A stretch of DNA of 64,000 nt from Paraspadella gotoi (Eukaryota; Animalia; Chaetognatha). The notes beneath the pieces were generated by a model. It searched no databases. It was not told where the DNA came from and saw only the letters and a program-made list of their open reading frames with translations. The stretch lies in contig JBJCIZ010000239.1 of NCBI GenBank assembly GCA_051294375.1, positions 2,741,476 through 2,805,475 of the forward strand. The letters run 5' to 3'. Position numbers and translations under genes: made by a program. Positions 465 through 63,010 of this stretch are shown here, piece by piece (position 1 is the stretch's first letter; every line of letters begins with the position of its first letter).

Positions 465-1385
465 ATGCCGAAAATAAAGACGCACGCGGATTCCCCGCCA
501 GCGGCGGCGGAGTCTCCCCCTCTTCCGGAATGTTTCCCGGAAATGCTTTCGGCTCCGGATTTGCGCGCGGCGTTGCTCCGATTCGGCGCTTCCGTCGATC
601 CCGGCGCGACGCACGAAGAGCTCCTTCGGCTTCACTACGAAATTCTCAACCCGAAACCTCAGCGGACAAAAACGCGGTCAAACAGAAGGGGACAGAAAAT
701 TCAACTCCGTCAAATTCGATCGGAGAAAAGAAAACGAAAATTGGAGACGGAAAAAGACTCTTTTTCGAAATCGAACAAATTCTCGCGAGCAGAATCCGTC
801 AACAACTCCGTCAACGCCCCTAACATTGCGGGTCCATTCGGTGACCGACTCGAACCTCCGCCGGGTCTCCGCGGAAACTCGGTCAAGTCGGTCCAGTCTT
901 TCTCCCTCGACTCTTTGGCCCACATTAAGATCAACGAGGGTCCTTCGAAAAAGCCCAAGGTTTTCGAAAGAATAACCGAGAGCTCCTCCTCGGTATCTTC
1001 GTCAGACTCTAAGACTCCTTCCCACCCAATTACCTCACCCGCGGTCGAGTGTAAATTTTGGGACATGTTCGGTTCAATTACCAACGGAATTCCCACGCTC
1101 CTTTGCGACAATCACAACAAAGTTGAGGCTCGAAAGTCATCCTCTCCGGAGAGACTTCGCTTAGCACCGAAAAGAGTTCTCAAACTAAATAGAAAAACAG
1201 TGCTTCCTTCGTCGGACTCGCCCGTCGTCGCCGCCAACGCCGCCAAAGTTTCCGTCGTATCGACGAAACGGTCCTTACACCGTGACGTGGACAGAGCTAT
1301 CTCCTCGGATTCTGGGTCGGACATGGACACCTCCGAGCCAGGGCCTCGAGAAACGAGGAAGATTACCAAAATTACTTGGCCGTAG
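465..1385 (+). CDS. C2orf49: Ashwin family protein (tRNA-splicing ligase complex subunit), single exon, 306 aa
   Basis: N-terminal PEMLS...L...PKPQR...NRRG, internal DRLEPPP and C-terminal KITKITWP match recalled Ashwin motifs (HPELLS, PLPQR..NRWG, DRLKPPP, KIQHVTWP). Confidence 0.8.
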   Translation: MPKIKTHADSPPAAAESPPLPECFPEMLSAPDLRAALLRFGASVDPGATHEELLRLHYEILNPKPQRTKTRSNRRGQKIQLRQIRSEKRKRKLETEKDSFSKSNKFSRAESVNNSVNAPNIAGPFGDRLEPPPGLRGNSVKSVQSFSLDSLAHIKINEGPSKKPKVFERITESSSSVSSSDSKTPSHPITSPAVECKFWDMFGSITNGIPTLLCDNHNKVEARKSSSPERLRLAPKRVLKLNRKTVLPSSDSPVVAANAAKVSVVSTKRSLHRDVDRAISSDSGSDMDTSEPGPRETRKITKITWP

Positions 1386-1950
1386 CGATTTAGAAACGTC
1401 GCGTTAATTCTCGCGACGTCTCGTTCCCGGGTTATACAGATCCAGCCCAAAGCACGTCTCTTTTTCTTTACCTTCCTTCCGATTGGAACCGTGATGGCAA
1501 AGTCGAGACTAAAAGTTAATGCCCAGATTTGGTCGAGAGCGATTGGGACCGAGAACCTTAGAAAAAAAAAAGAGAAATTGTCACGTGAAGAACTTTATTA
1601 TACGAGGAAAATCGGAGTTGAGTTTTTGATTATTTTTCTTCTTGAATTCAGAGTAATTTTTGGCTGATCTCATCGGCCTTGATCATCGGCTGTTGAAAAA
1701 AAAAAAAGTTTTATTTTGTTTACGAGATCAAAAATGCGACCAAATAAAGATTCTTTCACCGAGTTGACATCATTGACATTTGTTTTGTTTTCTTACTCGC
1801 TTTACTAACACGCGTTATCTCATCTCATACAGAGTACAAACGTTCCTCCAAACGGTTAACCGTGTTTTTGACAATGTTATTCCCGAAATGTGATTTCTCT
1901 TAAACAATTCCCGCCATCGGAGGGAGATATCCCGAATTCGAGGGATCGGA

Positions 1951-4169
1951 ATGTCTCCGGAAATCGCGATGGTCCTCTCCAAGTTCCGTCGATGGGTTCA
2001 GCGTTACGTCAACCCTCCAGTCTATCGTTTCTTTCATCCTCTGCCTTCTCGAGAGGTCTTTCACAAAAATCCTATTTTAGGAAAACTAAAATTCCTGTCC
2101 TTGTCAAATTATTCGCCCGCAGAACTGGCAATGTCTTGTAACGAAGTCGAAGGCTTCTTTTAATTCGCCGATTCTGCTGGCGAGGGGGATTCCCCCGTTC
2201 TGAATCTAAACGACTTTTCTTCCTTCCCCCCTCCCCCCAACCCGCAGCTCTCCATTTCCCGCGTCTACTTGATTTTCGCTTTGATGGTATTCCTCTTCAA
2301 CGAATACCTCTGTTTCTGGTGGGCTTTTTTGCAATGGCCAAACCTGGCGTCGATCATGCGCGCCCCCGACGCCGACCACCTCAGGGTTCTTTTCGTCGCC
2401 GACCCGCAAATCGTCGGGATGGAAAACGAAAATCACTTTTTCGGACCCGTCACCAGGCACGATATCCCTCCCCTGTTGATGTGTTGCTTGTTTTTGCTTT
2501 TTTTGCATATCAATCTAATTTGCATATTGTCGTGTTTTGATCAAGCATTGTTCGATTTTTGCTCTTTTCTTCTTTTATTCAATATTTATTTACATTTGAC
2601 CTTAATTTGAAACGTAAATATCAATATTTATCAATCTTTCGTAAATGACCAAGACTTAATCCTATTAAATGTAACAAATTTCGAAACTTAACTTACTGAC
2701 CGTTCCAATTTTTACAGATGGGATTCCGACAAGTACCTCCTCAAATCGTATTCGTTGGCGATGGGCTACGTTCGTCCAGACGCCGTGATTTTCCTCGGTG
2801 ATCTCATAGACGAAGGCAGCATCGCCACCGACGCCGACTTCCGACACTACGTCAAAAGGTTCCACAGACTCTTTCCCATCCCGTCCAACGTGAAAGTGGC
2901 TTACCTTCCTGGCGACAACGACATCGGCGGCGAGGGAAGGGATCAGTATAGGTTAGTGGGGACTGGGGAGGGGAATAAGAGGTGGTTTTTAGTCGCGGCG
3001 AGACTAAAGTTAAATAACTTAAATCTTTTTAATCGTACGTTTTCGGTAATCCAATGAAAAAGAGGCCGCAAAGCCTTTGAGCCTCTCCTTTACCAACGGA
3101 GAAACAAAAATTTAAAAGTTGATAGTTTCGTAAAACATTAAATTCTAATGAATTTAAAGAGCGCCGGGACTGATTATGTAATGGCTTTAAAAGCCTCCTC
3201 GTTTACTTTCCATTCTCGTTCACGCAGTCTCGAAAAGCAGAAACGTTTCGAATCACACTTCGGTGAATTCACGGGAATTCCGTTCACCGTCAAGTTCGTC
3301 GACTTCGTCCCAATTCGATTCAACTACCTCGAGGCTTTCGACGTGACGGGGAACGAGCCTCTCGCCGAACAACTCGCCTCGCCAATCAGAATCGTCCTCA
3401 ATCACTTCACAATGCTCAGATGCAAAGGTTGGTGATAGGGGGGCGTGAACCTTTGGTTTGAAGTCATTTCTTTTTTTTACTTTATTTTAACAATTGTTTT
3501 TATATTGTTTTACGGATTAGTTTCTTAAATTTTTTTAATGTTTCTATTTTAATGACGTTAGTGTCTTTTGTTTTTATTGTATTTTTCAGTTCACAGTTAA
3601 GTTTTTATTCTTTTACAGCTCTTTTTTTTTTTTCAAATCGTTACTGCTTTTTTGTTTTTGATATTAATAAAAATAAAAAGAGATTAGTTTATTGCCATCA
3701 TCTTCCCTCTTTGATTCTTCCCCTTTTATCATTTTCCCCATCTACAGCGAGTCGCCATCTCCTCAAGCGCGCCCCTTTGCACGTGATGAATCTATTCCGC
3801 TCCTCGTTGGCCTTCACCGGCGACATCCACAAGGCGCGCCACGACTCCGCCCTCGTCGCCGAACAGATCGAGTCGTGTCAATCGACGCCGCTCGGCGCCG
3901 CACGGAACCTCACCTCCTTCCGCCTCGCCCCCGACACGTGGCACGAAATCGTCACGCCCACCTGCAGTTATCGGATGGGCGTGTCTCACATGGGCTTCAC
4001 CGTGGCCACGATCGGCAGGGACGGTCAGGTCGACGTGGCCTTTCTCTGGCTGCCAGGGAGATTCGGTTATCTCTTCCTCTATTTGTTTCTCCTCATTTTC
4101 GCCGTCGTCCAGTTTATCTATTTCCGATGCGGAATGGGAAAGGAAAGACTCAAGCCCATGACTCCTTAA
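1951..4169 (+). CDS. Metallophosphoesterase 1-like (MPPE1/PGAP5/Cdc1 family) membrane protein, multi-exon; start codon uncertain
   Basis: N-terminal TM with NEY, motifs VADPQ, FLGDL, PGDNDIG, PTCSYRMG and a C-terminal TM. Exons about 2248-2456, 2718-2951, 3228-3427, 3748-4169. First exon inferred from ORF 1951-2163. Confidence 0.8.
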
Positions 4170-4607: not shown

Positions 4608-5564
4608 ATGTCGCATCTACCTAATGCCTCTCCATCTCCCAATACTCTCCCGCCACAACCCCGTGCAACTGTTCCCCCTTGGCAATTCGTCGAACCCGGT
4701 CGCATTCCGAACGCCAACGTCAACTCTGCCCCTCCGATTCCACCACGAGGCTCTTCTTACAATCACTCTTCTCTTTTCTCCCCCTTCGCCTCTTACGGCT
4801 CCGTCGGTTCCCCCTTCTCTCCGTTCTCTCCCTACGGCGCCCCATTCTATGGCGGCGCCGGCGTGGGGCGCTCATTGATGAACGACGGCGCCTTCGCCTT
4901 TTTCGCCAACGAAAACGCGCGACCCGCTTTCGAAAAGGCGGAGGCGGTGGTGATGGCCGTTCGTTCGGTCTCGCTCATGGTGGAATCCACCTACCAAGCC
5001 GTTCGTTCCACCTTCTTGGCGGTGGTGGGCGTCGCTGACCACTTTTCAAACCTCAAGAATCATCTCGGTTCGATATTGTCCAGCTTGACTCTGTTACGGT
5101 TTTTTAAATGGATTTTGGATAGAGTGTTGACCTTTCTCGGCATCGAGCCTACAGGGTCTAGAAGCGCCATCGATTGGTCCGAAGCCTTCAAACGAGAGAC
5201 AATAGAGACTGTTTCGTCTAAGCACGTGGCGGTTTGGCCACTTTTGGCTTTTTTTGGAGTTGCCTTGGGAGCGCCCTGGATTCTTAGGCATCTGCTGCAG
5301 TCGACGCCTGCATCAACGGACGATGGTTCTTGGTCGAAAGGCGCAGGAGAACGTTACATCGCCAGAGCAGAGCACGGATTCCGCGCCGGCGCTGCGGATG
5401 AACTTTCATTCGATCAGGGAGACATTTTGATGGTGGCACCCAAGCATCTACAACCCTCTAACTCGAAAGGCTGGTTGTTGGCTTCGAAAGAAGGCGTCGG
5501 TAAAGGGCTCGTTCCCGTTAATCACATTCAGATATTGATGAAGAGAGAAAGCGAGTGTCGTTAA
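4608..5564 (+). CDS. PEX13: Peroxisomal membrane protein PEX13, single exon, 318 aa
   Basis: PPW and PPIPPR N-terminus, Y/G-rich region, AFEKAEAVVMAVRSVSLMVESTY...VVGVADHF Peroxin-13 domain, WPL...GAPW TM, C-terminal SH3 (ELSF...GWL...GLVP). Confidence 0.95.
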   Translation: MSHLPNASPSPNTLPPQPRATVPPWQFVEPGRIPNANVNSAPPIPPRGSSYNHSSLFSPFASYGSVGSPFSPFSPYGAPFYGGAGVGRSLMNDGAFAFFANENARPAFEKAEAVVMAVRSVSLMVESTYQAVRSTFLAVVGVADHFSNLKNHLGSILSSLTLLRFFKWILDRVLTFLGIEPTGSRSAIDWSEAFKRETIETVSSKHVAVWPLLAFFGVALGAPWILRHLLQSTPASTDDGSWSKGAGERYIARAEHGFRAGAADELSFDQGDILMVAPKHLQPSNSKGWLLASKEGVGKGLVPVNHIQILMKRESECR

Positions 5565-5783: not shown

Positions 5784-8700
5784 ATGGCTTTGGCCATTTC
5801 CATGGCCAACAGGGCCATGCGAGGCTTCGTTTCTTGCACGGCCATCGACGGCCGCCGATGCGTCCACGCTAAGGAGTCATCATCATCGGAGACACCTCTC
5901 CCTCGCGAGGCTCGCGTGGTCATCACCGGCGCTGGAGTGGTCGGATGCTCGGTCGCCTACCACTTGGCGGAACGTGGATGGAAGCAAATCCTCTTGCTCG
6001 ATCAGGGCCAAGTCAGCTGCGGCACCACTCACCACAGCGTAGGTCTGCTTGGCATTTTGAGATCCACTGTGACCGAAGGCAGAATCGCCCGCAAGAGCAT
6101 CGACCTTTACAAACGGCTCGACGAACTGGGCTACCACTGCGGCATCAAGAATTGCGGCAGCCTCCACTTGGCCTCGACCAACGACCGAATGATCGTTTTG
6201 CGGCGCAACGCGGCCATGGCCAAAACCCAAGGCGTCGACTGTCGAGTTTTAGCTCCCAAGGACATCGCCGACGTCCACCCGATGTTCAAAGAAGGTTTCG
6301 TCAACCTTTCCGACATCAAGGGCGGCGTTTGGTCGCCCGGTGATCACGTGGGAACGGCGCCCGACATCTGCAGTGCCCTCGCACGGGCCGCTCGGGACAA
6401 GGGCGTAACCCTGATCGAAAACTGTCAGGTTCAGCGAGTGAACACTCGCGTCGTCCGTAACGACCTCTCGCGCGTCTCCAGCGTCGAGACGTCAAAGGGC
6501 AACGTCAACTGCGAGTTTTTCGTCAATTGCGCAGGAATTTGGTCGCGCGAGTTGGGGAAGAAGTCGACTCCCAAAGTCAAAGTTCCTCTCCAGGCCTGCG
6601 AGCATTATTACCTGGTCACCAAACCGATCCCCGGGATCGAACCCATGATGCCCATAATCCGCGACCCCGACGGATTTCACTACGCTCGAGAATGGAGCGG
6701 GGGGCTCATGATCGGAGGCTTCGAACCCGTGGGCAAGCCGGTCTTTACCGAGCGAATTCCCGACGACTTTCAGTTCCAACTTTTGCCAAACGATTGGGAT
6801 CACTTCCAAATCATTCTCGAAAAGATTCTCCACCGGCTGCCGTGCGTGGCCGAAGCGGAAGTCAAGCAGCTCGTCAACGGACCGGAAAGCTTCACGCCGG
6901 ACACCAAGTGGATTTTGGGAGAGACGCCGGAGATACAAAACTATTTCGTCGCAACGGGAATGCACTCACTCGGAATCACTGGTAATAAAAGCCGAAAGGG
7001 ATTCGCTTGAGTAAAGTTATTCTTTCACGTGAATTTTCAATTTGGCAGCCGCCGGCGGAGTAGGTTCTATTCTCGCCGAGTGGATCATCGACGGGGAGCC
7101 CGAACACGACTTGTGGTCCTTCGACGTTCGAAGATTCGTGGGTCTTCACAACAACCGGATGTTCTTGTGCGACCGCGTGAAGGAGACGTTGGGGCTCTCG
7201 TACTCCATTCGTTACCCGGATCTCCAGTTTGAATCTAGTCGAGAACTGTTGAGGACCTCTCCTTTGTACAGTCGTCTGGAGGTCGAAGGTTTGTGGGCGA
7301 TGGGCGTTGAGTTAGAGATAAGTAGTTTACCTTTTATTTGTTTGTTTATTTGTTTATTTGTTTGTTTGTTTATCAGGCGCCAGATTCGGCGAGGTTTGGG
7401 GCTTCGAGAGGGCGCTCTTTTTCGATCGATCACAAATCGAAGAAGATTACGACGTGATGGCGCCGCCGCCTAAACCCACTTTCGGAATGCCCCATTGGTT
7501 TGACATGGTGAAAGAGGAGTACAGGACTTGCAGACAAAGTACGAATTTTTGATTTGTAAAGAAATAGTGTGTTTCTAAAATTTGTTTGACAAGCTTAGCT
7601 GGAGCCGATTTTTTTTTTATTAATGTAGGTGTGTCGCTGATTGACATGTCCTCTTTCACAAAAGTAGAACTGAAATCGACAGGAAGAGAAGTCGTAGACT
7701 TTCTTCAGGTCAGAGAACTTTTTTTTTTTTACTTATTTTCGCCGCGAATAAATTCAATTTTAGAATCAATCCCTGCAGTATATGTGTTCGAACAACGTGG
7801 ACGCTCCGGTTGGCACAGTCATCCACACTGGAATGCAGAATCACCGCGGCGGTTTCGAGAACGATTGCAGCGTTGTCCGTTTGGGGGAAAACCACTACTT
7901 TATCATCGCTCCTACCACGCTGCAGACGAGGATGATTGCCTGGTTAAACAGGCACAAGCCGGCCGATGGCTCCGTCGTTATTTCAGACGTAAGATTTTTT
8001 TTTATTGCTATGTCAATGGGAAAATTTAAAAAAAAAAAATAGTTATCATTATTATGAAAAGGTCAGTTTTTTTTAGATAAACTCTCCATGTCGGAGTAAT
8101 ATTTAATCATTTAAAATGTTTAAATAATTCTTAAGACAAAAAAAAATAAAATGAAAGTCTCAATAAAACGATTGAGGCGATTAAAAGACATGACTTCAAT
8201 ACACAAATAAGATTGCGAAACTTATCGTCACGACTTTTGTTACCCATCAGGTGACCTCCATGTACTCGGCCATCAACGTCATCGGACCCAAGTCGCAGGA
8301 AATGTTGCAGGAACTCACTGAGACTCGATTGGACCGAAAAAACTTTGGGTCCATGACGTGTAAAGAAATCAACGTCGCCTACGCGTCGGGAATAAAAGCT
8401 CTCAGACTCACTCACACCGGAGAAGATGGATGGGTAAGTTTAAATTTGACCACGTTAAATTAAATTACGATAGATTGTATTACTATTTTATGAGAGATTT
8501 AAATTTTTTTTTTTAGGTCCTTTACATTCCTTCCGAATTTTCCCTCCACGTTTACGACCGCCTCACTACTCACGGTCAGAATTACGGAGTTCGCAACGCC
8601 GGCTACTACGCCTTACGCTCTCTCAGGATCGAAAAGTTTTTCCTCTACTGGGGACAAGATTTGGATTCGAGGTACGATCAACAAGCTCGATCCTTCTTCC

Positions 8701-9203
8701 GTTCTTTTCAACACAAAATGATCCCTTGCCTCCGCAGAATGACGCCTTTTGAATGCGGACGCGAACACCGCGTCCAATTCGAGAAGGAGTTCATCGGCAA
8801 AGAGGCTCTCCTTCAGCAAAAGCAAAACGGCGTCAAGATCAAGTTCCTTCAGCTCGTTCTCAGGGACCACGACAAATTCTTAGACCCGTGGCCTTTCCGC
8901 GGAGAACCCATTTTCCGTAACGGGACCTACGCGGGAGTCGTCACCTCCGGCGCCTTTGGGTTCGGACTCGACAAACACGTCCTCATGGGTTACGTTCGAG
9001 ACATCGATCCGAAAACGGGCGAGTACAGACTCATGAAGGACAACAGCTTCGTCAATGCGAAGGACACAAAGTGGGAAGTAGATATAGCGGGAAAGAAGTT
9101 TTCCGCCAAGGCCTCGACTTATCCGCATCCCTTGCCACCGATCAATCCTCCTCATATGTACACGCCCACTTTGACTTCGGAAGCACGGACTTCCACCAGT
9201 TAA
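5784..9203 (+). CDS. PDPR: Pyruvate dehydrogenase phosphatase regulatory subunit-like (GcvT family FAD protein, mitochondrial), multi-exon
   Basis: Mitochondrial-type leader, GAGVVG FAD motif, GTTHHSVG, GPESFTPD, GLHNNRMFL, IDMSSFTK, HTGMQNHRGGFEND, THTGEDG, SLRIEKF, TPFECG; GT-AG introns restore the frame. Confidence 0.9.
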
Positions 9204-9805
9204 ACTTTGCTCGCTTTTGGTATCACTGTCGGGAAGAGAATTTTCGCCCCCCTCACATCGCTGGTTTACGAACAACACCGTAGTTAGTAGTAACTCGGGA
9301 ATTTAAGGTTTTCTACATAACTTTTGTTTTTTGAATCGCGGAAAAGACCGTTAGTTCTCAGGAAAGTAACATATACAACAATTTCAGTGAAAAATCATGA
9401 TTGTTGGCGCATAGTCGTTTAGAGTTATAGGCATAGATTCAGAATATAACAGACCAAATCTGTCTTTCACTTCTGAGATCAAAGACAGTCCTTAATTGTC
9501 CGCTTTGGTTTCTCACCTGTTTAAACCGATGAACGGTCTCAATTACAAGTTATGTACTATTTGTTCACGTTATGTTTTTTTTTTTAAATCTTTTTTTATT
9601 AAATTCAAATCGGATCTGCTTTTCTACTTTGTACAATCATGATCTCTTGAAGCGCTTTTTTGCGCCGCATGATAAGTTTAAAGCGTCGCGGATTTTTTTT
9701 TCCATTTGGATTCGCTTGTTTGCTAATTTTTTTTCAATTCCAGATGCGTTTTTTTAGTACAACTTGATATTTAAAATTTTTCCCAACAAAAAAAATCTTA
9801 GAGCG

Positions 9806-11312
9806 ATGGCAGAATCTTCGGATGACGAGAATGTTAACGAGGAATGGGTTTTTTACAAAGACCGACCCGAATGGGCCGACGTGACCCCAGTGCCTCAGGA
9901 CGACGGCCCTAATCCGGTCGTCGCGATCGCCTACTCCGATAGGTCTTTTAAAATGTCTATGTATGCCTTCTTTTTTTTTCCTTATCGTATTTAATTAATT
10001 CTCGTGATTTCCCAGATTTCGTGACGTCTTCGATCATTTTCGCGCCATTTTGCGATCGAGCGAAAAGAGCGAACGGAGTTTGTCCTTGACCACCGACGCC
10101 ATCGATCTCAATCCGGGGAACTACACCGTTTGGCACTACAGGAGGCTTATTTTAAAGGTAAATTCTAATTTTGTCTAAATTTTATCGTCGTTCATTATGT
10201 ATGATTGTATATATTTTCTTTTGACGAGGCTTTGGAAAAGGATTTGTACGACGAATTGACTTTCAACCGGGAGATAATCGAGGAGCATCCTAAAAATTAT
10301 CAAGTACGAAAGCTCTTTTTTTTTTTTTTTTTTACACTTTAAACATTTTAAAAATCATCATTTAAACTGTCTTATCGAAGTATTGACATTTTATACCAAA
10401 GTATTTCACACTTACGAATCAAGGTTTGGAATCACCGCCGCATTTTGGTGGAATGGTTACAAGACCCTCAATACGAGTTGCGTTTGGTGGAGATAGTCTT
10501 AGCCCGTGACTCCAAGAATTATCACGCCTGGCAACACCGTCAATGGGTGCTCAAGACCTTCGGCGTGAGTTTGACGTGGATTTACTTCTTTTCCCATTAT
10601 GTATGAATTTTTCAATGAATATCTTGATCAACTTTTTAGCTTTGGGAAAAAGAACTGAACTTCGTTGACCGACTGATCAAAGAAGACGTGAGAAACAACT
10701 CCGCTTGGAATCAGCGTCACTTCGTCATTGTCAACACCACTCGATACACCCCGGAAGTTGTGGCATCGGAGATTAACTACGCAAAGGAGGCCATCTTGAA
10801 GGCTGTGCATAATGAGAGCCCCTGGAACTACATCAGAGCTATCCTTCTGCAGGAAGTGGACGATTCAATGTTTCGATATCCAGGTTAACAGCTGAGCGAT
10901 CGAATATTTAACTTTAACGAACGACAATTGTAAGATATATATATATATATATTATATAAGATATATACAATCAGTTACGAACGAACTGTCGATATATCGA
11001 CAACGCGAGTTGTTCATTTGTTTTGCAGGGATACAAGAGTTCGTCGCGGATCTTCTCGATCGAGAAAAGAATCTGGACGGCCCCTTGAAATCCTCTTATC
11101 TCCACGGATTCCTCGTAGATCTTCTCGAGAACGAACTCGCCAATACGGACTGGAGCGATTCTCGGGAGGAAGAGAAGTCGGCCTTGTTGGATCGGGCCTC
11201 TCGAGAGTGCGCACTGTTGGCGGAGAGCGTTGATCCCGTCCGAGCCAACTACTGGAGATACGTGGAGAGATCTCTCAAAAACAAGCACGGCGTCACTTCC
11301 GAATCCGCCTAG
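9806..11312 (+). CDS. FNTA: Protein farnesyltransferase/geranylgeranyltransferase type-1 alpha subunit, multi-exon
   Basis: [87 protein letters not shown]. Confidence 0.96.
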
Positions 11313-11533
11313 TCCCTTTTTTTTTTATTTTCCGGCTTTTTTTTTTTTTAATTATTAATATTATTCGTTTTAAATTCAATTTCAATCGTTCTTCTTTTCG
11401 CCTTTTTATTTTTAACTACTTTTTTTTTCAGGGGATATTTTGACATGAAGATTTGCATGTAACAAAACTCATGATCGAGATATTTTCCCTTGAGTCGTCG
11501 ACGTCGTCCTGACCCCTCGCTTCCGCCGTTTCC

Positions 11534-12174
11534 ATGGAGACTCGTCTCCCCTACTTCACGGAAGGCGAGGTCATACGCGGCTTCGGTCGTGGGAGCAAAG
11601 AATTGGGCATCCCGACGGCCAACTTCCCCGATGACGTCGTGAATCAACTTCCCGACGAGATCACCACCGGGATATTTTTTGGGTGGGCCAAGCTCGAGGA
11701 CGAACCCGTCCGGGGGATGGTAGTTAGTATAGGTGCGTCTGGATTTGTTTCTTTCTTCCTTTATGAAACCTTTAACCTTTAACATTGATGTTTGTCTTCC
11801 CCATATTTCCAACCCGTTGTAACATTTAACAATCATTTATAAAGCCTTAAACATTGTTACATCGTCAAGATGTTGAATCCATAGTCTCCTCCAATCAAAT
11901 TTCCGCCCCCCCCCCAAAAGGCTGGAATCCTTTCTACAACAACACGAAGCGAACGATCGAAACTCACATCCTCCACGAGTACGACGAAGACTTTTACGGG
12001 TCCCGACTCAAAATCGCCATCGCGGGATTCATCCGCCCGGAAAAAAACTTTTCTTCTGTCGACGACCTCGTCGCCGAAATTCGCCACGACATCCGAGTCG
12101 CCGGGGAGAAGCTCCGCCTTTCGGAACACGAGGCGCTCAAGGCCGCGAAATTCTTTGTCGCCAACAAAACTTGA
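11534..12174 (+). CDS. RFK: Riboflavin kinase, 2 exons
   Basis: GEVIRGFGRGSKELGIPTAN, MVVSIG|WNPFYNN, ETHILH..DFYG, IRPEKNF; intron about 11733-11920. Confidence 0.96.
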
Positions 12175-12561
12175 TAAAGAGGCGCGGGGGGGGGGGATTG
12201 AGGATGGGGCAGTCGGGGAGAATCGTTGAGTCGAGGGCTATGATCGATGAGCTTGGATCGTTTTAAATTTTTCTTACGGGGTCGTCAGTCACCTCGGTCG
12301 TTCGTTTTGTTAAGTTGTCTTTAAACTTTAAATCTATTGAACATTATTCGCGTTGATTGACGATGTATGTTCACTGGAGAAAAAGAAATGATGGTAAAGG
12401 ACTTTTGCCGGCCTTAAATTCCTCCAATCCTATTTTTAGAAGGCCCACTGGCGTTTCTCGTTGATCTTCGTTAGTACAATTTTTATATAATGATTTTCAA
12501 TTATGATTATATTTTTTCAGATGCGAAAGTAAAAAAATCGTGTCCCAGGGAGGAATGAACA

Positions 12562-23299: not shown

Positions 23300-23355
<56 letters not shown>

Positions 23356-26908: not shown

Positions 26909-30444
<3,536 letters not shown>

Positions 30445-31487: not shown

Positions 31488-31545
31488 TTGCTCCGTCAAA
31501 GCTGTCATCTTTCTCACCTTCTGGCAAGGTGAGAGAACTTTTTGC
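31488..31545 (+). repeat. Exact 58-bp duplicate of TMEM184B 28443-28500 (exon end plus donor site)
   Basis: TTGCTCCGTCAAAGCTGTCATCTTTCTCACCTTCTGGCAAGGTGAGAGAACTTTTTGC occurs at both positions. Confidence 0.95.
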
Positions 31546-31632
31546 GCTCTTTGGCGGACGTCGATTGGTTTGCCACATTCAAGTTCTTTTTTCTGTTCTG
31601 CCACCGAAACATAAATAGCGGAAATATTAATG

Positions 31633-42733: not shown

Positions 42734-42853
42734 TCCCTGATCGGCTAAAGCGCCGCCCGATCGGCCAAACGACTACTTCATGTAAAAACGTCAAGAATTT
42801 TCTTTCTTTTCCCCCCCTTTTTCTTCTAATTAACACGAGAAACGAAATCAAGA

Positions 42854-43178
42854 TTACTTTTTCTCTTCCAACGGAACGAAATCCGGAGTCTGCTCTTTTG
42901 TTTTTAAGTAAACTCTGCGTCGGTCCCAGTAATTGGCCCAAGTCTTTGAGCAAGAATTTTCGAAGACTTTTCTCAAGGCCGCGCATTCATCTTCCGAATT
43001 GTTGTCCAGGCAAAACCACAACTCGTCTTTCGCCCCAACGCATTTTTCTCTGAAATTCGTGAACAGAAATTCGCCTATCAGCTTCTAAAGTAAACCGATA
43101 ATGATAATGTTCAGAATTAATTTTCAGTTAATTAAATAGATAAACCCACCGTTTGGACTTAAACGACTCCTCGGACAT
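42854..43178 (-). CDS. COA6: COA6-like copy b (twin-Cys, 74 aa); exons 43178-43150 and 43049-42854; absent from the ORF track
   Basis: Spliced translation MSEESFKSKR|EKCVGAKDELWFCLDNNSEDECAALRKVFENSCSKTWANYWDRRRVYLKTKEQTPDFVPLEEKK; CX9C...CX10C; GT-AG intron at the same position as copy a. Confidence 0.85.
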
Positions 43179-49700: not shown

Positions 49701-49820
49701 AATTTCAAATCGAATAAAAGTGTTTTAAATTAAAGTATATATATGTGTGATCACTTGTGTGAACGTTTTTGAAAATCTGAATCCATCTTGATACACTATC
49801 TCATCCGCATTTTGCAAAGG

Positions 49821-49857
<37 letters not shown>

Positions 49858-52800: not shown

Positions 52801-54402
52801 AGCCAGAGTCCCTCACCTTCGCGCGAATGGCAGAGTTCCCGGTAGCTCAGTCTGAGCTTCTGCATCATAGAGTGGCGTTCCCGCTCGATGTCGGGGTGAG
52901 GTGGGAGCAGCGTCGACACCAACGGCCGCTCGTACATGATCACGTTCGAGTGAATGTCCACGTTGTAAAAGGTGGGTCCTGTAATGAGGCGAAATAAATT
53001 TAAAAAAAAAAAAAGAACCATGACGTCTGATCGTCCGCGATATGAGAACGAAGAATACCTTTGTACGTTCTTTTAATGGTGGGCGGCTTGTGAGGCGTCC
53101 CGCCTAAATCAAGCGAATCCGTGGACTTTCTCTTCTCACCCACGTGAATGCTGTCTGACGAGCCGGAGGACGGAGTTGGTGAGGAAATGCCTGGGAATAA
53201 GGAAATTAAATCAATTCAAAAAGAGCCATCAAAAAATAGGATCAACTTACCATTTCATATCAATTATATTATTAATGTACTTTCAAAAATATCGCCCATC
53301 AGAATCACCTTAGCTTTTGCATAAATTTTGTTGGTCATTTGGTTTAATTTTAAATACTTAATTTAAAATAATAAATAAAATTAAAAATTATCGATTAAAT
53401 ATAAATAGTAAACTTATAAATGTATATTAATTAATAATTTTCAAATTATAATATTAGTTATTTACCCAAAAATTAAAAAAAATGATTTGAAATTATATAG
53501 TGTCACGATTTTTACGAGAATAAAAATTGTCCAAACCATCGTAGTGGGGAATTATCAAGCCGCTCTCACCCAAGGGATCTCGCAAAGGATCTGGCGACAT
53601 GTCGAGACTCGCCGGGCTGGGCATGACGCCCTTGGCGGCCGACGGCAACGTGGGCGCCTCCCATCGAGACTCGTTATTGTACTTGTTGAAGAAGTAGTGG
53701 CGGTTCTCGCGTTTGCTAAAAAACTTGCGCCAACCGGCGCGCAGCAACTCCGCGGGGAGATCATGGACGGTGTCCGGGGAGGAGAGGGGAGACTAAATAG
53801 GAGAACAAGGGGTCGGTGTTATTTCCGTTTATTGTTTAAAAAAAGAATTCTTAAAGACAAAGGACAAGGGTCGGTGGTATTTTTGTTTCTTTGTTTAAAA
53901 AAAGAATCCTTAAAGACAAAGGACAAGGGTCGGTGGTATTTCTGTTTCTTTGTTTAAAAAAAAGAATCCTTAAAGACAAAGGACAAGGGTCGGTGGTATT
54001 TCTGTTTCTTTGTTTAAAAAAAGAATCCTTAAAGACAAAGGACAAGGGTCGGTGATATTTCTGTTTCTTTGTATCAAAAAAGAATCCTTAAAGACAAAGG
54101 ACAAGGGTCGGTAGTATTTCTGTTTCTTTGTTTAAAAAAAGGATCCTTAAAGACAAAGGACACGTTCCGAAGTCCAAACTTACCTGCGGCGATGGCACCG
54201 GTTGAGGCGAGAGCGGCGATGGCGTGCCGGGCGAAGGCAGAGACTGGAAAGGGTCGCGCGGCGACGACGACGTGGACGAGACGGAGAAACTTCGCGCCGC
54301 CTGTCGACCGGACTCAGATTCGTTGGATCCCCCCGTCGGAGCCGCGACGACGCTCAGAGCAGGTGGAGCCCCGCCCGGGCAAGATTGGTTCTGCCCGTCC
54401 AT
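46724..54402 (-). CDS. PCIF1: mRNA cap-adjacent m6Am methyltransferase (CAPAM), multi-exon
   Basis: WW domain ([23 protein letters not shown]), [23 protein letters not shown]|ANPPF catalytic motif, FIPEW, WLQ|NDAGFSKW. Three small Ser-rich 3' exons (47186-47077, 46975-46887, 46793-46724) fit in phase. Confidence 0.92.
48918..49083. mobile_element. Small MITE-like element with imperfect TIRs and internal ATTG..CCC subrepeats, in a PCIF1 intron
   Basis: Left end AGGATTGTGCCCACGTA versus reverse complement of the right end AGGATTGTACCCGACGTA; repeated ATTGNRCCC-like units about 15 nt apart. Confidence 0.55.
50013..50075 (+). promoter_or_regulatory. Candidate Pol II core promoter antisense to PCIF1
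   Basis: ATTGCGCAAT (50013-50022), GGGGCGGAG (50029-50037), TATAAAAA (50041), TCAGT initiator with A at 50071, exactly 30 nt after the TATA. Confidence 0.5.
51983..52086. repeat. (ATTCT/ATTCTT)n microsatellite in a PCIF1 GC-AG intron
   Basis: Directly visible tandem TTATTC/CTATT units. Confidence 0.9.
53805..54162. repeat. 59-60-bp minisatellite, about 6 copies, filling PCIF1 intron 1
   Basis: AAAGACAAAGGACA recurs at 53853, 53912, 53972, 54031, 54090 and 54149. Confidence 0.95.
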
Positions 54403-55151: not shown

Positions 55152-56587
55152 CTATCTTTGAGTTTGAGAAACCGAGGAGGCAGCAGCACCCGGGGCGACG
55201 GCCGTCTCGGCGATCGAACTCCCCGCCATCAGCCGACACCGCTCTTCTCTGATTTTGAGCCTCTCTTTGGCGAGGCACAGTGCCTCCTCGGCGACCTGTA
55301 ATCGAGAATGGCGACTCAAATTTCCCACAGGATAATGATTAAAGTTGAAGAGATCAAAAAAGCAAGAACCCACTTTTTTCTTTTCCGCCGACAACGCGTC
55401 GCGTTCTCGCTGCAGAACGAGTTCCCCATTGGAGTCTTTGGTAGAAGATTTGAGCCTTTCCACCATCTGCGCTTGACGCTCAATCACGCCTTCGTAGTAA
55501 CGGATTTTCTCCATCAACGCCTTCGTCGAATCGGAGACATCGTTGCCCTTCGAAGGCGGAGGCTTCTCTCGGTCTTCGAGAGTCTCGTCATCATCAGCGC
55601 GGGAGTCTCTCTCCTTCCTACGACTGCAAATCCGCTCTGCCCTCTCGAGTCGCTCATCAAAGTCGGCGAAGTTAAGGAGTTCGAGCGGAAGGCGAAGTCT
55701 TGGGTCGTCGTCGATGTCGCCGTCCGAGTATTCGCCCTCGAGTCTGGAGATTCTTCCCGAGTGTCCGTCCTTGGTGGACGGTTGGAAACTGAGCGAGGAT
55801 TCGGGAGTCAAGGAATCGAAGAGATCGTCGAGTCGGCTTCGCTGCAGAAGGAGGCTTCGACGGAGATGAGAATTCTCAGCCAGGAGTTGCTTCTGTCTCT
55901 CCCCGTAATTCGTCACGACGACGGAGTACATCATCTCTTCCTCCTTAGTGAGCGTGGACGCCAAGTTGGACCAGGTACTTAATTATTTAATTATATTCAT
56001 GAATAAAAGTAACGAATTAAAAATGTTAGTTAACATCTTTACCTTCTTCTACCCCCGGGCTTCCGTAACGACTGCGAACAATCCATTTTTGCTGATGAAA
56101 AATTTTCGGCCGACTTGTCCATTTGTTGGATGTGCTCCTTGAGTCTTTCCAACTCTCGTTCGTTTTTCCGACTTTCGTGAAGAAAGAGCTTCTCCTTATA
56201 TTGCGCGGCCTGAGCCATTTTTTTCCTTTCCTCAACCTCTCGATTAAGCGTCTTTTGCAAAGAGGCCATCTTCTCTTCCAATCGTCTCTCCTTTTCCTCC
56301 CGTTCCGCGAGGGACCGTTTCAGGACGACGCATTTTTCGCGCGAAAGTCGGAGGCTCTTGGCCGTTTGCTCCTTGTCGCCGACCAAGACTCGTTTTTCCG
56401 TCTCCAGATCGTTGATGGCGGAAACGTTTTTCCTTTGAAGGTCGACCAAGCGAAAGGCAATGTCTAAGAGTCGGCGACGCAAATCTTCGCTGTTGGCAGG
56501 GATGGCGGGGATGCCCAGAATTTCCAACTCACCGTTTAAAAGCGCCAACGCCTCGTCGACGTTAAATGCGAAAGGGAAGGAAGCCAT
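55152..56587 (-). CDS. SSX2IP: Afadin- and alpha-actinin-binding protein (SSX2IP/ADIP/Msd1 family), coiled-coil
   Basis: LNGELEILG, HESRKNERELERLKE and EEEMMYSVVVTNYGERQKQLLAENSHLR resemble recalled SSX2IP segments. Confidence 0.8.
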
Positions 56588-56931
56588 GTCGATTGTCAAG
56601 CATATTACGAGCATTTAACGAATCTTTAAAAACAAAGAATGAACAATTGCGTACATTATTGAGAAACACATTAGTGAATTAAAACTAGGACTTCATTCAC
56701 AGTACGACCCTTGACAAAGGAATGAGAGGTTTCCATTAAGGATCATAATCGTATTTTCTTTTTAAAAACTAAAGAGTTTGAGGGTTGAGAGAACAGTGGA
56801 GCGAAAAATGGAGTGAAAGGAATGAAGAGTGATGAACGACGTGGTGAACGAGGATCTTGCTCAGCCCCATAGAGTGTGGTGTTGGACATAAACTGGTTGG
56901 AGGACGTTCCCTTAACAATTCCTCTTCAGCG

Positions 56932-57429: not shown

Positions 57430-58972
57430 TCAATTCAGTTTCCTTTTCTTATTCATAATAATATTCGACATAGCGGGGGCGTTGTAAGCAGCGCGCAAAT
57501 CGGGTTTCGGCCCCGTAATCGGCCCTTCCGTTACTGACGACCCGGGCTTGACCGAAGCGCCCTCTTTCACTTTATTTCGAAAGTGACGAAAGCTGGGCAT
57601 GAGTTCCGGGTCGCAGGGAAGCGGGGCTTCGTTGAAGTAGATCGACTGGAGGCATTCGACGGCCGTGGCGCGCTTTCCCGGGTGATAGAGGAACATAAAA
57701 TTTAAAAGTCGAAGTCCGGAGGCGGAGAGCCAAGTAAAGGAGTGTTTCAAATTATTGTAGGATTGGTGCTTGAGCGAGAAGTTCTCGAGGACGGGAAATT
57801 CTTTCATTTCTGGCCAGATTCGCTCGTTGGGCGTCCCGAGAAGATCGATGATCAGTTCGATTTGCTGAAGGATAGTTTATTTTGAAGTCAAATTAACTAC
57901 TTATCAAAGCAGAATGAGTGAAGAATCCAGATAAACCTGAATCTCGTTCCTTCCGGGCAGCAGAGGCTTGTGCAACAGCAACTCGGCGAGGATGCAGCCG
58001 GCCGCCCACATATCCACGGCCGTCGTCTGCCTCTTCGATCCCAACAGAATTTCAGGGGCGCGATACCAAAGTGTAACCACACGAGGAGTCAGCGAACCTT
58101 TCTCCGGTTGACCCACGACCCTGGCCAACCCGAAGTCGGCGACTTTGACGCAGCCCTGATCCGTCATCAAAAGGTTTGAGACTTTGAGATCGCGATGAAT
58201 GATGTAGCGAGCGTGGAGGTATTGGAGTCCGCGAAGAACTTGGAGCATGATGCACTTGACTTGGGCTTCGGTGAAGGGAGTCGACATGTTGTCTAGGAGG
58301 GAGGCGATGTCCTGTTCGCAATACCTGAGGATATATTTTGTCACATTTTAAGTTTTATTGAGCTGATGACGATACGTACGCACGTACTACGCACGCTCTC
58401 TCTCTCTCTTTTCTCACGTCATGACTAAAAAGATGCTGTCCATACTCTTCCCGACAACGACCTCTCGCAATTCCACAATGTTCTCGTGTCGCAGGTTGAT
58501 GAGAAGAGAAATTTCGCGGAGAGTGGAGATCGGCAGCCCGTCCTTCTCTCGCTCCATTCGAACTCGTTTCAAAGCGACGATCTACGAGCAAAGTGAGATG
58601 ATATAGAGACAGAGACGAAAACCAATAGAAAGAAAGAGATCCGACGCTAAGACCTCGTTGGTTTTCATATCCCTGGCTCGATAGACGATTCCGTAGGTGC
58701 CCTCGCCGACTCGGTTGAGCTTCTCGAAGTCGGAGACGGCGCGGCACGAGCCGTTGCGGTGGCGCTCGGGAATTTCGAATGGCTCCCCGCTGGTGATGGA
58801 CATAAGAACGAAGTTCGGCGGGGATCGTACTTGTGGTGAGGAAATTTGAATAAAAAACTTATAAGGGGAAACGAGACGAAGCCGTTAATTCTTTACCTCC
58901 TTGTTCTTTATCTTTATCTTTATCTTCCTGTGGTTTCTCGTTTCCGCTGTGACTTTTATCCCGCGAGTCCAT
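57430..58972 (-). CDS. CDK10: Cyclin-dependent kinase 10, multi-exon
   Basis: [78 protein letters not shown]. Confidence 0.95.
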
Positions 58973-61043
58973 CTTTAAATAAGCGTCGCTGGTGGCCGTA
59001 TGAAAAAAATATATATTAACTTAGTTTAATGGATATATCGGGAGAATGATTGAAAGCAAGACGACTATAAGAGAATCCCTAAAAAAATACTGTGAGCTTA
59101 TTTTTTTATCAAAATAAAATTGAGTTACCCGAATCGAAAAACGAAAAATTATTAAATGTGTAACAAAAAAAAATACTCACCCGTGATTTGTTGTGAGAAT
59201 ATTCGATTTCAAATTTTTTTTTATCTGAAATTTCACGTTTTACATAAATTAACGAGCTTTTTTTCTTAGGGAAAAGAAGACAAGTTCCACATAATATTAA
59301 CGTTGAAACGTGAGTTGTAGGCGAAAACTGACACCTTTTTTTGTAAGATAATAAATATTAAATACAGAAAAAAAAAGCTTTTTTTAAAACCGATATAATA
59401 CCAAATATGCTCGTTTATCTCAGCTAAAAACATACAGGGTAAAGAATAAGTACCACCTCATCAGTTTTCAGTATTAAGTACAATGAAGTGAAAGGAAAGC
59501 ACAAGTTAATTATCACAATGGGATTCCAATTTCGTGATCTAACACCGTACAATTAGACTAACAAACTGAACTATACGGAACAAGACTGATAAAATGTGTG
59601 AACCTACCCAGGCGGATTATTACTTTTAAGGTAACCCATTACAATAAAACCCTGTGATCTATAATTAGCAAAACAAATCGTTTGTTGTTATGTGAAAGCT
59701 TTTTTGTCGACTTTATTGCTGGAAGAGAGTTTGTAAAAAATTGATTCAAATGGGAATAAAGGAATGCATATTTTCAGTTTAGTTAATTGGTCACTTATTC
59801 TTTAGATTCAGGAACGTATATTGTATAAATGTACTGATATTATGAAAATATAACTTTGATAAATTAGTGTATCTCTGGGAATATCTACAATACAAAAATA
59901 ATTGAAAAAGATGAATATTAAATAGTAAAAAATCTGTAGATGGCTAGTATATCATTTTATTAACAGGACAAAAAACTTTTAACATTTAATTCAAAATAAT
60001 TTTCATTGCCAATCAACGTAATAAAAAGATTAAGATCTAAAAAAAATATTAACTAAAAAATTAATTAATGCCAGAATGTCGAAATGCCGTTTCAAGCATT
60101 TATGAAACGATGCTTGTATTCCAAAAGAAATTCTAAAATTCTGCGTGACACACACTTCACACTAAATTTTAAACAATACTTATTCCTCAAATTAATTAAA
60201 TTAAAATGATTAGGTAATAATTCAATGCTTGGAATTTGTGGATAATGGGATGGGTAGCCAAATAAGAGCAAGATTCAGAGGCTAAAAGAGAAAATGTAAG
60301 GAGAGAAAGAGTAATGGTTTAGATTTAGGGAGATGTCATCAAAAACATTTAAGATAGAGAAAGAAGAAAGCGGGAGAAAAAGCGAGAGACTAAGTAAGAC
60401 TCAAAGGTGGAGGAAAGAATAAAGAAGAGAGAAATGCTTAGTGAATGATTGAGCTAAGCCTAAGGTAGTTGGAATAAAACTGTTTTCATCTTAATAAAAA
60501 AAAAGTGATTGCATGTCGTAATGGAAATTTAACGCAAGTACATTGAATATTTCATCTCGGTAAAGTTTTTTGGAAAGTTTTACGTATCTCAAAGTGGTAG
60601 CGTACTGCTTTTGTAAATACTTTTTTTATGTCTAGCTTAAAATATTTGCTAACAAAGTGACTAGAAAAACGGATGTCATTGGCTAACACACACGGTCATT
60701 AGTCACTACAAATAGCTATGTCACTGACGTTTGAAAAAATGCAGTAACAAAGCCAGGAGTCGGGGAGTTTAGTCGGAGAGCACAGTACTTTCTTCAATAT
60801 AAAAAAAAACGAAATAAAAAACAATTCGTTTAACAAAAAATATGTAAAGCGCTTAAGTATAAAAATGAGATTAAACTAAGCAAAACAACGCAGAAATAAT
60901 TTAAAAAAAATAAAACTGTATGAGATCGTATGAATTGAGTATAATTTTTGTCATAAAGCCGTCCATGAGGCATCGCTTATCTCAACGCTATTTTTTTATT
61001 TTTTTTCCTTAAAGACTAGTTCCGAAAATTCGTGTCCGATAGA

Positions 61044-61967
61044 TCAGCATTGACAATTCCCGCCGACCGGATTGGGTATGTTGCCAAGACCGGGAATGGC
61101 GCCGTCCGGAGCTCCGGGATCGACGGTGCCCCCGGTTCCGGTCCTGCCGGGGCCGCCGGCGCCCAGCTTGTGGGTTTGGTTTTGCCCCGAGGCTCTGGCG
61201 GCCGCGGTGGGGTCGGAGTCGAGGCTCTCGGACATCTTGTCGCAGATGATGTCGACGAGGCGCTCGAAGACGGCCTTGACGTTGATGTTTTCCTTGGCGG
61301 AAGTTTCGAAGAACTCGAGTCCCATTTGGTCGGCGAGCTGCTTGCCGCGTTCGGCCGATACGACGCGGATCTCGTCCATGTCGCACTTGTTCCCCACGAG
61401 GATCACTTGGGCGTTCTCCCACGAGTACATCTTGATCTGGGTGCACCAATCCTGAACGGCGTTGAAAGACTCTTCGTTCGTTACGTCGTACATCAGGATA
61501 AAACCCATTGCTCCGCGATAGTAGGCCGTCGTGATGGTGCGGTATCGCTCCTGACCCGCCGTGTCCCAGATCTGAGTCAAGCGAAAAAAAAGAGATTTGA
61601 GTGTTTGATCGATTGAATACGCGTATTCTGCCCATTCTCAGAAAGCCTAGACGATAAACCCGTAGGAAGAGTGAGTGGAGCAATCACAAAACTGAACCTC
61701 GTCTCTCCATCATTAATTTTTATAATTACATCAAATCAAATATGCAACCTGTAGTTTGACGCGCTTGTCCCCTCGGAAAACCGTCTTGACTTTGAAGTCG
61801 ATCCCGACGGTGGAGACGAAGGCCGAGGTGAAGGAGTCATCGGCGTAGCGGAAGAGGAACGAGGTTTTCCCGACCGACGAGTTGCCGATGATCAAGAGTT
61901 TGAACATGTAGTCGAAGTTTTGATCGGCGCCCCCTTCCTTCTGCCATCGTTGGTCCGACATGCTCAT
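61044..61967 (-). CDS. RAB3: Ras-related protein Rab-3, 2 coding exons
   Basis: [58 protein letters not shown]-terminal CQC. Confidence 0.97.
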
Positions 61968-62187
61968 TTTTAAGGGTTTATTAAGTTTTAAATTGTTTTT
62001 AAATAAGTTTGTTTAGATACTTATTTATTCAACCTTTTTCTTGTCCTCTAATCTTATAAAGATACCAAAAATATGATCAAAAGATTGTATAAAAATCATA
62101 GCTAATAAATCAACAAATTAACTTAATAACCGCACTGAATCACAAAGTTGGTGAAATCAATGAGGGAATTCACAACAGGCATTTCTC

Positions 62188-63010
62188 TCAAGCAACGTGA
62201 AACTCGAATTCTACTAATTTCCCAAGGCCGGCGCGAACCACGTCGCCCGGACTGACGGGTCCGACGCCAGCAGGGGTGCCCGTCAAGACTAGATCACCCT
62301 CCTGGAGGGTAAAGTACTGGGAGATAAAGTTGATAAGCGTCGGGATGTCAAAGATCATGTCGCGAGTTGATCCTCGTTGACGATCTTTCCCGTTGACGGA
62401 GCACCAAAGCTCCACGTCGTGAGGATCGCCAAGTTTATCCTGTTACGCGAAAAACAATCCAGGGTTAAGACTTGTTATGCAAGATAGTTTTATAAGAGGA
62501 TCAATGATGAAGATGGAATACCGCTGCAATCATGTCGGAGATGGGACAACTGGTATCGAAACCTTTGGCCAAGCACCAAGGATGGCCCTTGGTCTTGGCC
62601 TCTTGTTGAAAGTCTCTGGCCGTCATGTCCAAGGCCAAAGCGTATCCAGCGACGTAACCGCATCGGAAGACTTTGTCCTTCGGAATGTCCGCTCCTTCCT
62701 TCCCGATCACGACCCCTGAACGAAATAGAAGGAAATTTCTTTTAAAACAGAAAACGGGAACGGAGTCGTCAAAGTTTTGGTTTTCCGTACCCAGTTCAAC
62801 TTCATGATGAAGATCCTTGCAGCCTTTCGGAATTCGAATTTTCTGACCTTCCACGATGTAGGAGGAAGTTGGCTTTAGAAACAACATGGGTTTAGAAGGC
62901 ACGGCAGCCCCCAACTCTTTGGCGTGATCGGCAAAGTTCCTTCCTACCGCCACGATTTTTTTACCATTTTGAACGAACCACGGGAGTTTTCGTGGCGCCT
63001 GTGACGTCAT
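62188..63010 (-). CDS. FAHD1: Fumarylacetoacetate hydrolase domain protein 1 (acylpyruvase), multi-exon
   Basis: KIVAVGRNF, FLKPTSSY, HHEVELG, ALDMTARD, PWCLAKGFDTSCP, GDLVLTGTP. Confidence 0.96.

What the first reader, a model, noticed from the sequence alone, without database searches (positions are those of the whole stretch)
465..63010. Two head-to-tail gene arrays (10 genes on +, 12 on -): candidate giant operons / polycistronic transcription in an animal
Seen: 22 unrelated housekeeping genes with one strand switch in 21 adjacencies. Random orientation gives P(<=1 switch)=22/2^21, about 1e-5. Stop-to-next-ATG gaps are tiny: 120 nt (COA6b-SCYL3), 159 (CPPED1-COA6b), 201 (COA6a-CPPED1), 219 (PEX13-PDPR), 220 (FAHD1-RAB3), 221 (FNTA-RFK). 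Known: spliced-leader trans-splicing resolves operons in nematodes, tunicates, flatworms and chaetognaths, usually with few genes per operon. Inference: these may be unusually long operons, or strand-coherent chains of operons, ending at a convergent zone near 31-33 kb.
Basis: partly seen in the sequence, partly recalled or inferred. Interest (0 to 1): 0.82.

Follow-up and report, generated by a model that had tools for sequence, protein, structure and literature searches.

The report
Chained arrow-worm housekeeping operons
Twenty-two mostly housekeeping genes lie head to tail in two converging runs in what is likely an arrow-worm genome, and RNA carries an arrow-worm-type spliced-leader tail and bridges three of the genes, so the runs are likely chains of several ordinary operons, a mechanism already described in this phylum, rather than two giant ones.

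Summary
The layout is real: 22 clean gene models, 10 on +, 12 on -, one switch, and the six quoted gaps are exact. They are the six smallest of 20 gaps (median 386 nt; three exceed 1.4 kb). RNA contigs on bases 1-12,900 support operon-type processing. One 4,959-nt contig equals PDPR+FNTA+RFK with 13 introns removed and both spacers kept. A 9-nt non-genomic end at the acceptor before MVK equals the shared 3' end of 25 of 26 published chaetognath spliced leaders. The organism is therefore likely a chaetognath, where trans-spliced operons are published (18% of genes, longest nine genes). The 1e-5 figure assumes independent genes; merging gaps under 900 nt gives five blocks (8, 2 | 2, 4, 6) and P=0.31. 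Best reading: a chain of ordinary operons, one possibly as long as the published record. Single 30-kb transcription units are not excluded but unsupported: 14 of 20 spacers have no RNA test. The scan noted a similar nine-gene run elsewhere in this genome. New member of a known kind.

The parts
465..1385 (+). Ashwin-like gene (306 aa, 1 exon)
   Evidence: model; ESM Atlas score 0.92 to Ashwin clusters; no Pfam or PDB hit
1831..1833 (+). AG acceptor; RNA contig 2 starts exactly at base 1833 (candidate trans-splice site of MPPE1)
   Evidence: table 8; best-scoring of 29 AG sites in the spacer
1951..4169 (+). MPPE1-like metallophosphoesterase (389 aa, 5 exons)
   Evidence: 4 RNA joints; weak Metallophos hit E=0.0016; name recalled
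4608..5564 (+). PEX13 (318 aa, 1 exon)
   Evidence: PF04088; homologues
5784..9203 (+). PDPR-like flavoprotein (897 aa, 8 exons)
   Evidence: PF01266; RNA joints
9204..9805 (+). PDPR-FNTA spacer (602 nt), kept unspliced in one spliced RNA contig
   Evidence: record 4 piece 8736-9940; arithmetic
9806..11312 (+). FNTA (340 aa, 6 exons)
   Evidence: PF01239; RNA joints
11313..11533 (+). FNTA-RFK spacer (221 nt), kept in the same contig
   Evidence: contig length 4,959 = 5801-12157 minus 13 introns
11534..12174 (+). Riboflavin kinase RFK (150 aa, 2 exons)
   Evidence: PF01687; RNA joint
12519..12521 (+). Trans-splice acceptor of MVK: a 9-nt non-genomic leader tail joins at 12521, 41 nt before the ATG
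   Evidence: table 7; matches chaetognath SL ends in PMC2481426 Table 3; no copy upstream on +
12562..14732 (+). Mevalonate kinase MVK (465 aa, 6 exons)
   Evidence: GHMP kinase hits; model
15213..23893 (+). DOCK7-like (2,302 aa, 20 exons)
   Evidence: 63-64% to vertebrate DOCK7 over one exon; model
23894..25397 (.). Long spacer, 1,504 nt: candidate block boundary
25398..26590 (+). Tafazzin (300 aa, 2 exons)
   Evidence: PF01553; homologues
26909..30444 (+). TMEM184-like (494 aa, 14 exons)
   Evidence: PF03619; model
30445..32959 (.). Convergent zone, 2,515 nt
32960..36987 (-). MICU1-like (568 aa, 10 exons)
   Evidence: EF-hand hits; model; name recalled
37840..39094 (-). eIF4E2-like (298 aa, 6 exons)
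   Evidence: PF01652
39481..42733 (-). SCYL3-like (843 aa, 7 exons)
   Evidence: clean model; no Pfam hit in two exons tested; name recalled
42854..43178 (-). COA6b (87 aa, 2 exons)
   Evidence: PF02297
43338..44739 (-). CPPED1-like (377 aa, 4 exons)
   Evidence: PF00149
44941..45270 (-). COA6a (84 aa, 2 exons)
   Evidence: PF02297; paralogue of COA6b
45271..46723 (.). Long spacer, 1,453 nt: candidate block boundary
46724..54402 (-). PCIF1 (788 aa, 15 exons; the modelled 3.4-kb intron and last three exons have no RNA test)
   Evidence: PF12237, WW; model
55152..56614 (-). SSX2IP/ADIP-like (439 aa, 3 exons)
   Evidence: PF11559
56932..57084 (-). STMP1-like micro-protein (50 aa)
   Evidence: PF15054 below cut-off, E=7e-6
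57430..58972 (-). CDK10-like kinase (412 aa, 5 exons)
   Evidence: PF00069; name recalled
58973..61043 (.). Long spacer, 2,071 nt: candidate block boundary
61044..61967 (-). RAB3-like (248 aa, 2 exons, ends in CQC)
   Evidence: PF00071; model
62188..63010 (-). FAHD1 (221 aa, 3 exons)
   Evidence: PF01557

Best explanation
The two same-strand runs are likely chains of several spliced-leader operons in what is likely an arrow-worm (chaetognath) genome: each tight block would be transcribed from one upstream promoter and cut into single-gene mRNAs by 3'-end cleavage and leader trans-splicing. Shown: gene layout, gap sizes, a leader-type tail at the MVK acceptor, and continuous intron-free RNA cover across PDPR-FNTA-RFK. 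Inferred: the phylum; that the bridging RNA comes from polycistronic precursors; and that the three spacers over 1.4 kb hold new promoters, which would give blocks of at least 8 (Ashwin-DOCK7, possibly continuing left of the window), 2, 2, 4 and 6 genes.
For: Leader tail: a 9-nt loose end at 12521, directly after a U-rich AG, equals the last 9 nt of 25 of the 26 chaetognath SL forms in PMC2481426 Table 3. Those forms differ at the tenth base, which is where an assembly graph would branch if several leaders were used (inference). A text search for that 9-mer with 'spliced leader' gave 2 papers: the chaetognath paper and a kinetoplastid tagging paper that I did not read. Bridging: record 4 is 4,959 nt, exactly 5801-12157 minus 13 introns; depth bins are reproduced with zero cover on introns up to 320 nt and full cover on the 602- and 221-nt spacers, which argues against DNA contamination. 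Record 2 starts exactly at the best of 29 AG sites before MPPE1. Protein hits fit a divergent spiralian: best named hits were a rotifer for PEX13 (37%) and molluscs and a nemertean for tafazzin (40-48%). Precedent: about half of P. gotoi genes are trans-spliced, 18% are in operons rich in metabolic genes, and the longest has nine genes (PMC12460157). Merging gaps up to 900 nt leaves five units and P=0.31.
Against: The leader evidence is one contig end of 9 nt in one run. Of the six spacers with RNA data, 2 are bridged, 1 is abutted (records meet at 1833) and 3 are not bridged in the pieces shown (53 pieces were not shown). An assembled contig is not a single molecule. The PEX13 contig has a 37-nt loose 5' end whose 30 displayed letters are not a known leader. 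Strong acceptor-like sites are not enriched before ATGs (7 of 22 windows of 120 nt against 18 of 66 spacer controls, Fisher P=0.44). No promoter word marks the long spacers after correction (best P=3e-4 among 2,049 hexamers). The 900-nt cut-off was chosen after seeing the data; at 250 nt P is still 5e-4 and at 500 nt 0.035. No protein hit was named as a chaetognath.
Confidence: 0.7

Rival explanations
1. Each run is one transcription unit of about 30 kb (10 and 12 or more genes), like a trypanosome directional gene cluster, ending in the convergent zone.
For: Only one switch in 21 adjacencies; even with the published P. gotoi operon rate P is 1.2e-4 per starting gene. No gap exceeds 2.1 kb. 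RNA record 1 runs 1,338 nt beyond the left edge of the window. An unchecked scan note reports 14 co-oriented housekeeping genes elsewhere in this genome.
Against: That rate still predicts about 1-3 such runs among 21,072 start positions (assuming P. gotoi figures apply). Three spacers of 1.45-2.07 kb are far above published intercistronic cut-offs (250 bp P. gotoi, 500 bp Oikopleura). None of these three spacers has RNA data.
Confidence: 0.12
2. The genes are mostly separately promoted, trans-spliced single genes in a compact region; overlapping 3' UTRs and outrons let the assembler join neighbours.
For: In P. gotoi most trans-spliced genes are not in operons. 14 of 20 gaps exceed 250 nt stop-to-ATG. 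Contigs break at 3 of 6 tested spacers. Compact animal genomes without operons exist (Dimorphilus, PMC7854359 passages).
Against: It does not explain the strand bias. Gaps of 120-221 nt must hold a 3' UTR, a poly(A) site, a promoter and an outron. One contig crosses two consecutive spacers with all introns removed.
Confidence: 0.15
3. The pattern is a chance run or an artefact of missed opposite-strand genes.
For: The window was picked from many; one candidate antisense non-coding unit exists in a PCIF1 intron.
Against: All 22 models are clean; no opposite-strand protein gene was found; leader tail and bridging contig are independent of orientation.
Confidence: 0.03

Closest known systems
Chaetognath SL-resolved operons: Paraspadella gotoi (PMC12460157) and Spadella cephaloptera RPS14-PCNA (PMC2481426)
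   Same: Same leader 3' end, head-to-tail housekeeping genes, short gaps; the 2008 paper already notes other closely clustered same-orientation genes on its BAC.
   Different: Different genes; the candidate 8-gene block is near the published maximum of nine; neighbouring blocks share a strand. Whether these genes are in the published operon table could not be checked (file too large).
Oikopleura dioica and Ciona operons (PMC11067885, PMC7986045)
   Same: Functionally loose housekeeping operons resolved by a leader; a nine-gene operon in Oikopleura, up to six or seven genes in Ciona.
   Different: Tunicate intercistronic distances are about 1-60 nt between transcript ends; here stop-to-ATG gaps are 120-850 nt within blocks (a different measure).
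C. elegans SL2 operons (PMC2776167 passages)
   Same: Unrelated housekeeping genes under one promoter, cut by trans-splicing.
   Different: Chaetognaths have no operon-specific leader.
Kinetoplastid directional gene clusters (recalled)
   Same: Long same-strand runs that meet at a convergent strand switch.
   Different: Those hold tens to hundreds of nearly intron-free genes with no internal promoters; here 10-12 intron-rich genes with three gaps large enough for promoters.

Membership tests
Chaetognath SL-resolved operon | Two or more same-strand genes separated by under 250 bp | tested here: met
   6 of 20 stop-to-ATG gaps are 221 nt or less, including a four-gene run COA6a-CPPED1-COA6b-SCYL3; the published rule is applied between gene models, so other gaps may also qualify
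Chaetognath SL-resolved operon | A chaetognath spliced leader on at least one gene | tested here: met
   9-nt leader tail at the MVK acceptor, one contig in one run; 1 of 7 genes in the region laid
Chaetognath SL-resolved operon | Polycistronic precursor spanning neighbouring genes | tested here: inconclusive
   one assembled contig bridges 2 of 6 tested spacers; not a single molecule
Chaetognath SL-resolved operon | One promoter per block and none inside | not testable with these tools
   no CAGE, ATAC or raw reads; hexamer scan negative
Chaetognath SL-resolved operon | Host is a chaetognath | tested here: inconclusive
   leader tail fits; named protein hits are other spiralians and vertebrates at 37-64%; none named as chaetognath
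Giant single operon / kinetoplastid-type directional cluster | All spacers of a run within intercistronic range | tested here: not met
   three spacers of 1,453-2,071 nt against published cut-offs of 250-500 bp
Giant single operon / kinetoplastid-type directional cluster | Read-through of the whole run with no internal start sites | not testable with these tools
   RNA laid only on 1-12,900

The most novel reading that the evidence does not exclude
Each run is a single 30-kb Pol II transcription unit of 10 or more and 12 intron-rich genes, ending in a convergent strand-switch zone: a trypanosome-like directional gene cluster in an animal, longer than any chaetognath operon I found in print (nine genes). 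A milder form, that the left block of at least 8 genes continues past the window edge and equals or beats nine, is more likely (about 0.35).
Probability: 0.12. Interest if true: 0.7.

Novelty: new member of a known kind. Interest (0 to 1): 0.3.

Why it matters
As most likely read, it adds a well-mapped, gene-dense example to a published phenomenon and suggests that the 250-bp rule may undercount operon length in arrow worms, since a 602-nt stop-to-start spacer is bridged by spliced RNA. It offers three defined spacers where start-site mapping would decide between chained and giant operons. If the giant reading held, it would show that an animal can run dozens of kilobases of intron-rich housekeeping genes from one promoter, which bears on why trans-splicing evolves.

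Tried and rejected
No whole genome is held, so genome-wide strand statistics were not possible. Only one run holds the DNA; two runs of other organisms gave only short matches. Sequence-only test for trans-splice acceptors before ATGs: no enrichment at 60, 120 or 200 nt against four controls; the lowest of 12 rank tests was P=0.02 (antisense control), not significant after correction. Promoter word search: TACTAG/ACTAGT looked enriched against introns, and 10 of 11 ACTAGT copies lie in spacers, but it failed a family-wise test. No leader-RNA gene, Rfam family or tRNA in the window; E-value scans of three GC-rich intron elements gave only chance bacterial hits or none. Synteny in relatives: 10 metagenome loci for PDPR were distant (35-47%) and held none of the other 21 genes. 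Exact look-up of three window proteins found none. The uncovered stretches 4531-4587 and 5737-5800 lie at or next to homopolymer runs and are not taken as evidence. An automatic exon-chain search skipped exons and was replaced by hand-placed boundaries checked for frame; its donor weights were generic values from recall. Literature: searches for 'longest operon' with 'same strand', 'up to nine genes' and 'adjacent operons' with 'same orientation' returned nothing; the listing for 'strand switch' showed no title on animal directional clusters. Two chaetognath preprints have no mention of operons or trans-splicing in the main text (their supplements were not seen).
Full report
Observation. I read the whole window and built exon chains by hand. 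All 22 genes translate cleanly from ATG to stop through 103 GT/GC..AG introns; coding sequence is 50% of the span. Nineteen of 22 have a Pfam hit at E 0.001 or better in at least one exon; MPPE1 has a weak hit, gene 1 resembles Ashwin in the ESM Atlas, and SCYL3 had no hit in the two exons tested. Precise orthologue names beyond the Pfam family are recalled, except DOCK7, PEX13 and tafazzin. Ten genes are on + and twelve on -, converging across 2,515 nt. The six quoted gaps are exact, but the median of all 20 is 386 nt and three are 1,453, 1,504 and 2,071 nt. No opposite-strand protein gene turned up.

RNA evidence. One public run, X1, holds 69% of the sampled words of 4,500-14,400. Its contigs were laid on 1-12,900. 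They show 15 joints: 14 GT..AG and one that fits a GC..AG intron, so the run is spliced RNA. Record 4 (4,959 nt) crosses the PDPR stop and FNTA start in one piece (8736-9940). Its length equals 5801-12157 minus the 13 modelled introns, so it also crosses FNTA-RFK. Depth predicted from four spliced records lies within 4 units of the observed value in 26 of 30 bins; the other four hold homopolymer matches or records downstream of RFK that I did not model. Introns of up to 320 nt are thus uncovered while spacers are covered, which argues against genomic DNA. Of six spacers in the region, two are bridged, one is abutted at 1833 and three are not bridged in the pieces shown (53 pieces and 4 of 17 loose ends were not shown). 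The other 14 spacers have no RNA test.

Leader. Among six loose ends shown for X1, one of 9 nt lies before 12521, right after a U-rich AG and 41 nt before the MVK ATG. It has no copy upstream on the + strand. It equals the last 9 nt of 25 of 26 chaetognath leader forms in Table 3 of PMC2481426 (passages), which differ at the tenth base. I first recognised the motif from recall and confirmed it by text search. A hand estimate of a chance match to this 9-mer in AT-rich sequence is about 2e-5 per loose end, before allowing for other phyla's leaders. Record 2 begins exactly at the best of 29 AG sites before MPPE1, as expected at a trans-splice branch (inference). Against this, the PEX13 contig has a 37-nt 5' end that does not look like a leader, and no leader was seen at FNTA or RFK; assemblers remove short tips, so absence there is weak.

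Organism. Proteins are metazoan and distant from all named hits: DOCK7 61-64%, PEX13 37% to a rotifer, tafazzin 40-48% to molluscs and a nemertean. With the leader tail this points to a chaetognath; the species was not determined. Two unchecked scan notes on other pieces of the genome reached the same phylum.

Statistics. The 1e-5 figure is right for independent genes. With the P. gotoi rate of operon adjacencies it becomes 0.6-1.2e-4 per starting gene, or about 1-3 runs per 21,072 genes. Merging gaps gives P=5e-4 at 250 nt, 0.035 at 500 nt, 0.11 at 650 nt and 0.31 at 900 nt, where the blocks are 8, 2 | 2, 4, 6. The bridged 602-nt spacer justifies a cut of at least 600 nt in this stop-to-ATG measure. 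The strand bias is thus mostly explained by operons of ordinary size, though the cut-off is post hoc.

Negative tests. Acceptor-like sites are not enriched before ATGs (7 of 22 against 18 of 66 spacer windows). No promoter hexamer passes correction. No related locus with conserved order was found among 10 metagenome loci.

Mechanism. Most likely (0.7), Pol II starts upstream of each block and transcribes several genes; introns are removed in cis, each upstream mRNA is cleaved and polyadenylated, and the next gene receives a capped leader at an AG shortly before its ATG. This follows the published chaetognath and nematode mechanism; here only the layout, one leader tail and RNA continuity over three genes are shown. 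Rivals: single 30-kb units (0.12), separately promoted trans-spliced genes (0.15), artefact (0.03).

Prior knowledge. PMC12460157 (abstract, passages, section 10): 10,197 of 21,072 genes trans-spliced, 18% in operons, 250-bp rule, longest nine genes. Its operon table could not be read and may already list these genes; the three readable supplements add nothing on strand bias. PMC2481426 (passages and section 13) reports the first chaetognath operon and other co-oriented clusters. PMC7986045, PMC11067885, PMC2776167 and PMC7854359 were seen as passages only. Two chaetognath preprints were term-searched only. I found no paper on 10-12-gene single units or co-oriented operon chains in animals in four searches, which is weak evidence.

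Verdict. Real feature, known mechanism, known phylum: new member of a known kind, interest 0.3. The open point is whether the three long spacers hold promoters.

Noticed in passing
window 50,030-50,560 (+), inside the modelled 3.4-kb PCIF1 intron: A GC-box-like word, a TATA box at 50,041 and an initiator-like word near 50,068 precede a GC-rich 490-nt stretch that folds well on + (z -3.5 and -3.4) but not on - (z 0.0). No Rfam family, no clear telomerase template. Candidate antisense non-coding RNA gene or solo LTR. The TATA-Inr pattern alone is not rare (5 matches against 1.9 expected).
   Followed up: partly
window 31,488-31,545: Exact 58-nt copy of a TMEM184 exon-intron junction (28,443-28,500) in the convergent zone.
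   Followed up: no
window 31,669-32,218: Nested long inverted repeats (arms of 132, 64 and 50 nt, 75-84% complementary), MITE- or foldback-like, in the convergent zone.
   Followed up: no
window 29,416-29,742 (+): 108-codon frame with coding-like composition inside a TMEM184 intron; likely an alternative or terminal exon; no Pfam hit.
   Followed up: partly
window 25,650-25,900 and 41,830-42,110: GC-rich intron elements in TAZ and SCYL3 that share a short hairpin; no fold excess (z about 0) and no credible Rfam match.
   Followed up: partly
window 4,588: The PEX13 RNA contig has a 37-nt 5' end absent from the window and unlike known leaders: chimera or exon from elsewhere.
   Followed up: partly
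window 12,521 and 9,744: At the MVK acceptor and at the predicted FNTA acceptor an ATG follows the AG at once and opens a very short upstream frame.
   Followed up: no
window 53,802-54,162: Tandem repeat of about 59 nt, six copies, in PCIF1 intron 1.
   Followed up: no
window 37,840-39,094 and 46,724-54,402: Two cap-related genes (eIF4E2-like and the cap methylase PCIF1) lie in the same run of a trans-splicing animal; no link tested.
   Followed up: no
window 1-464: RNA record 1 covers this stretch and 1,338 nt beyond the left edge without a splice, so the + run may continue outside the window.
   Followed up: no
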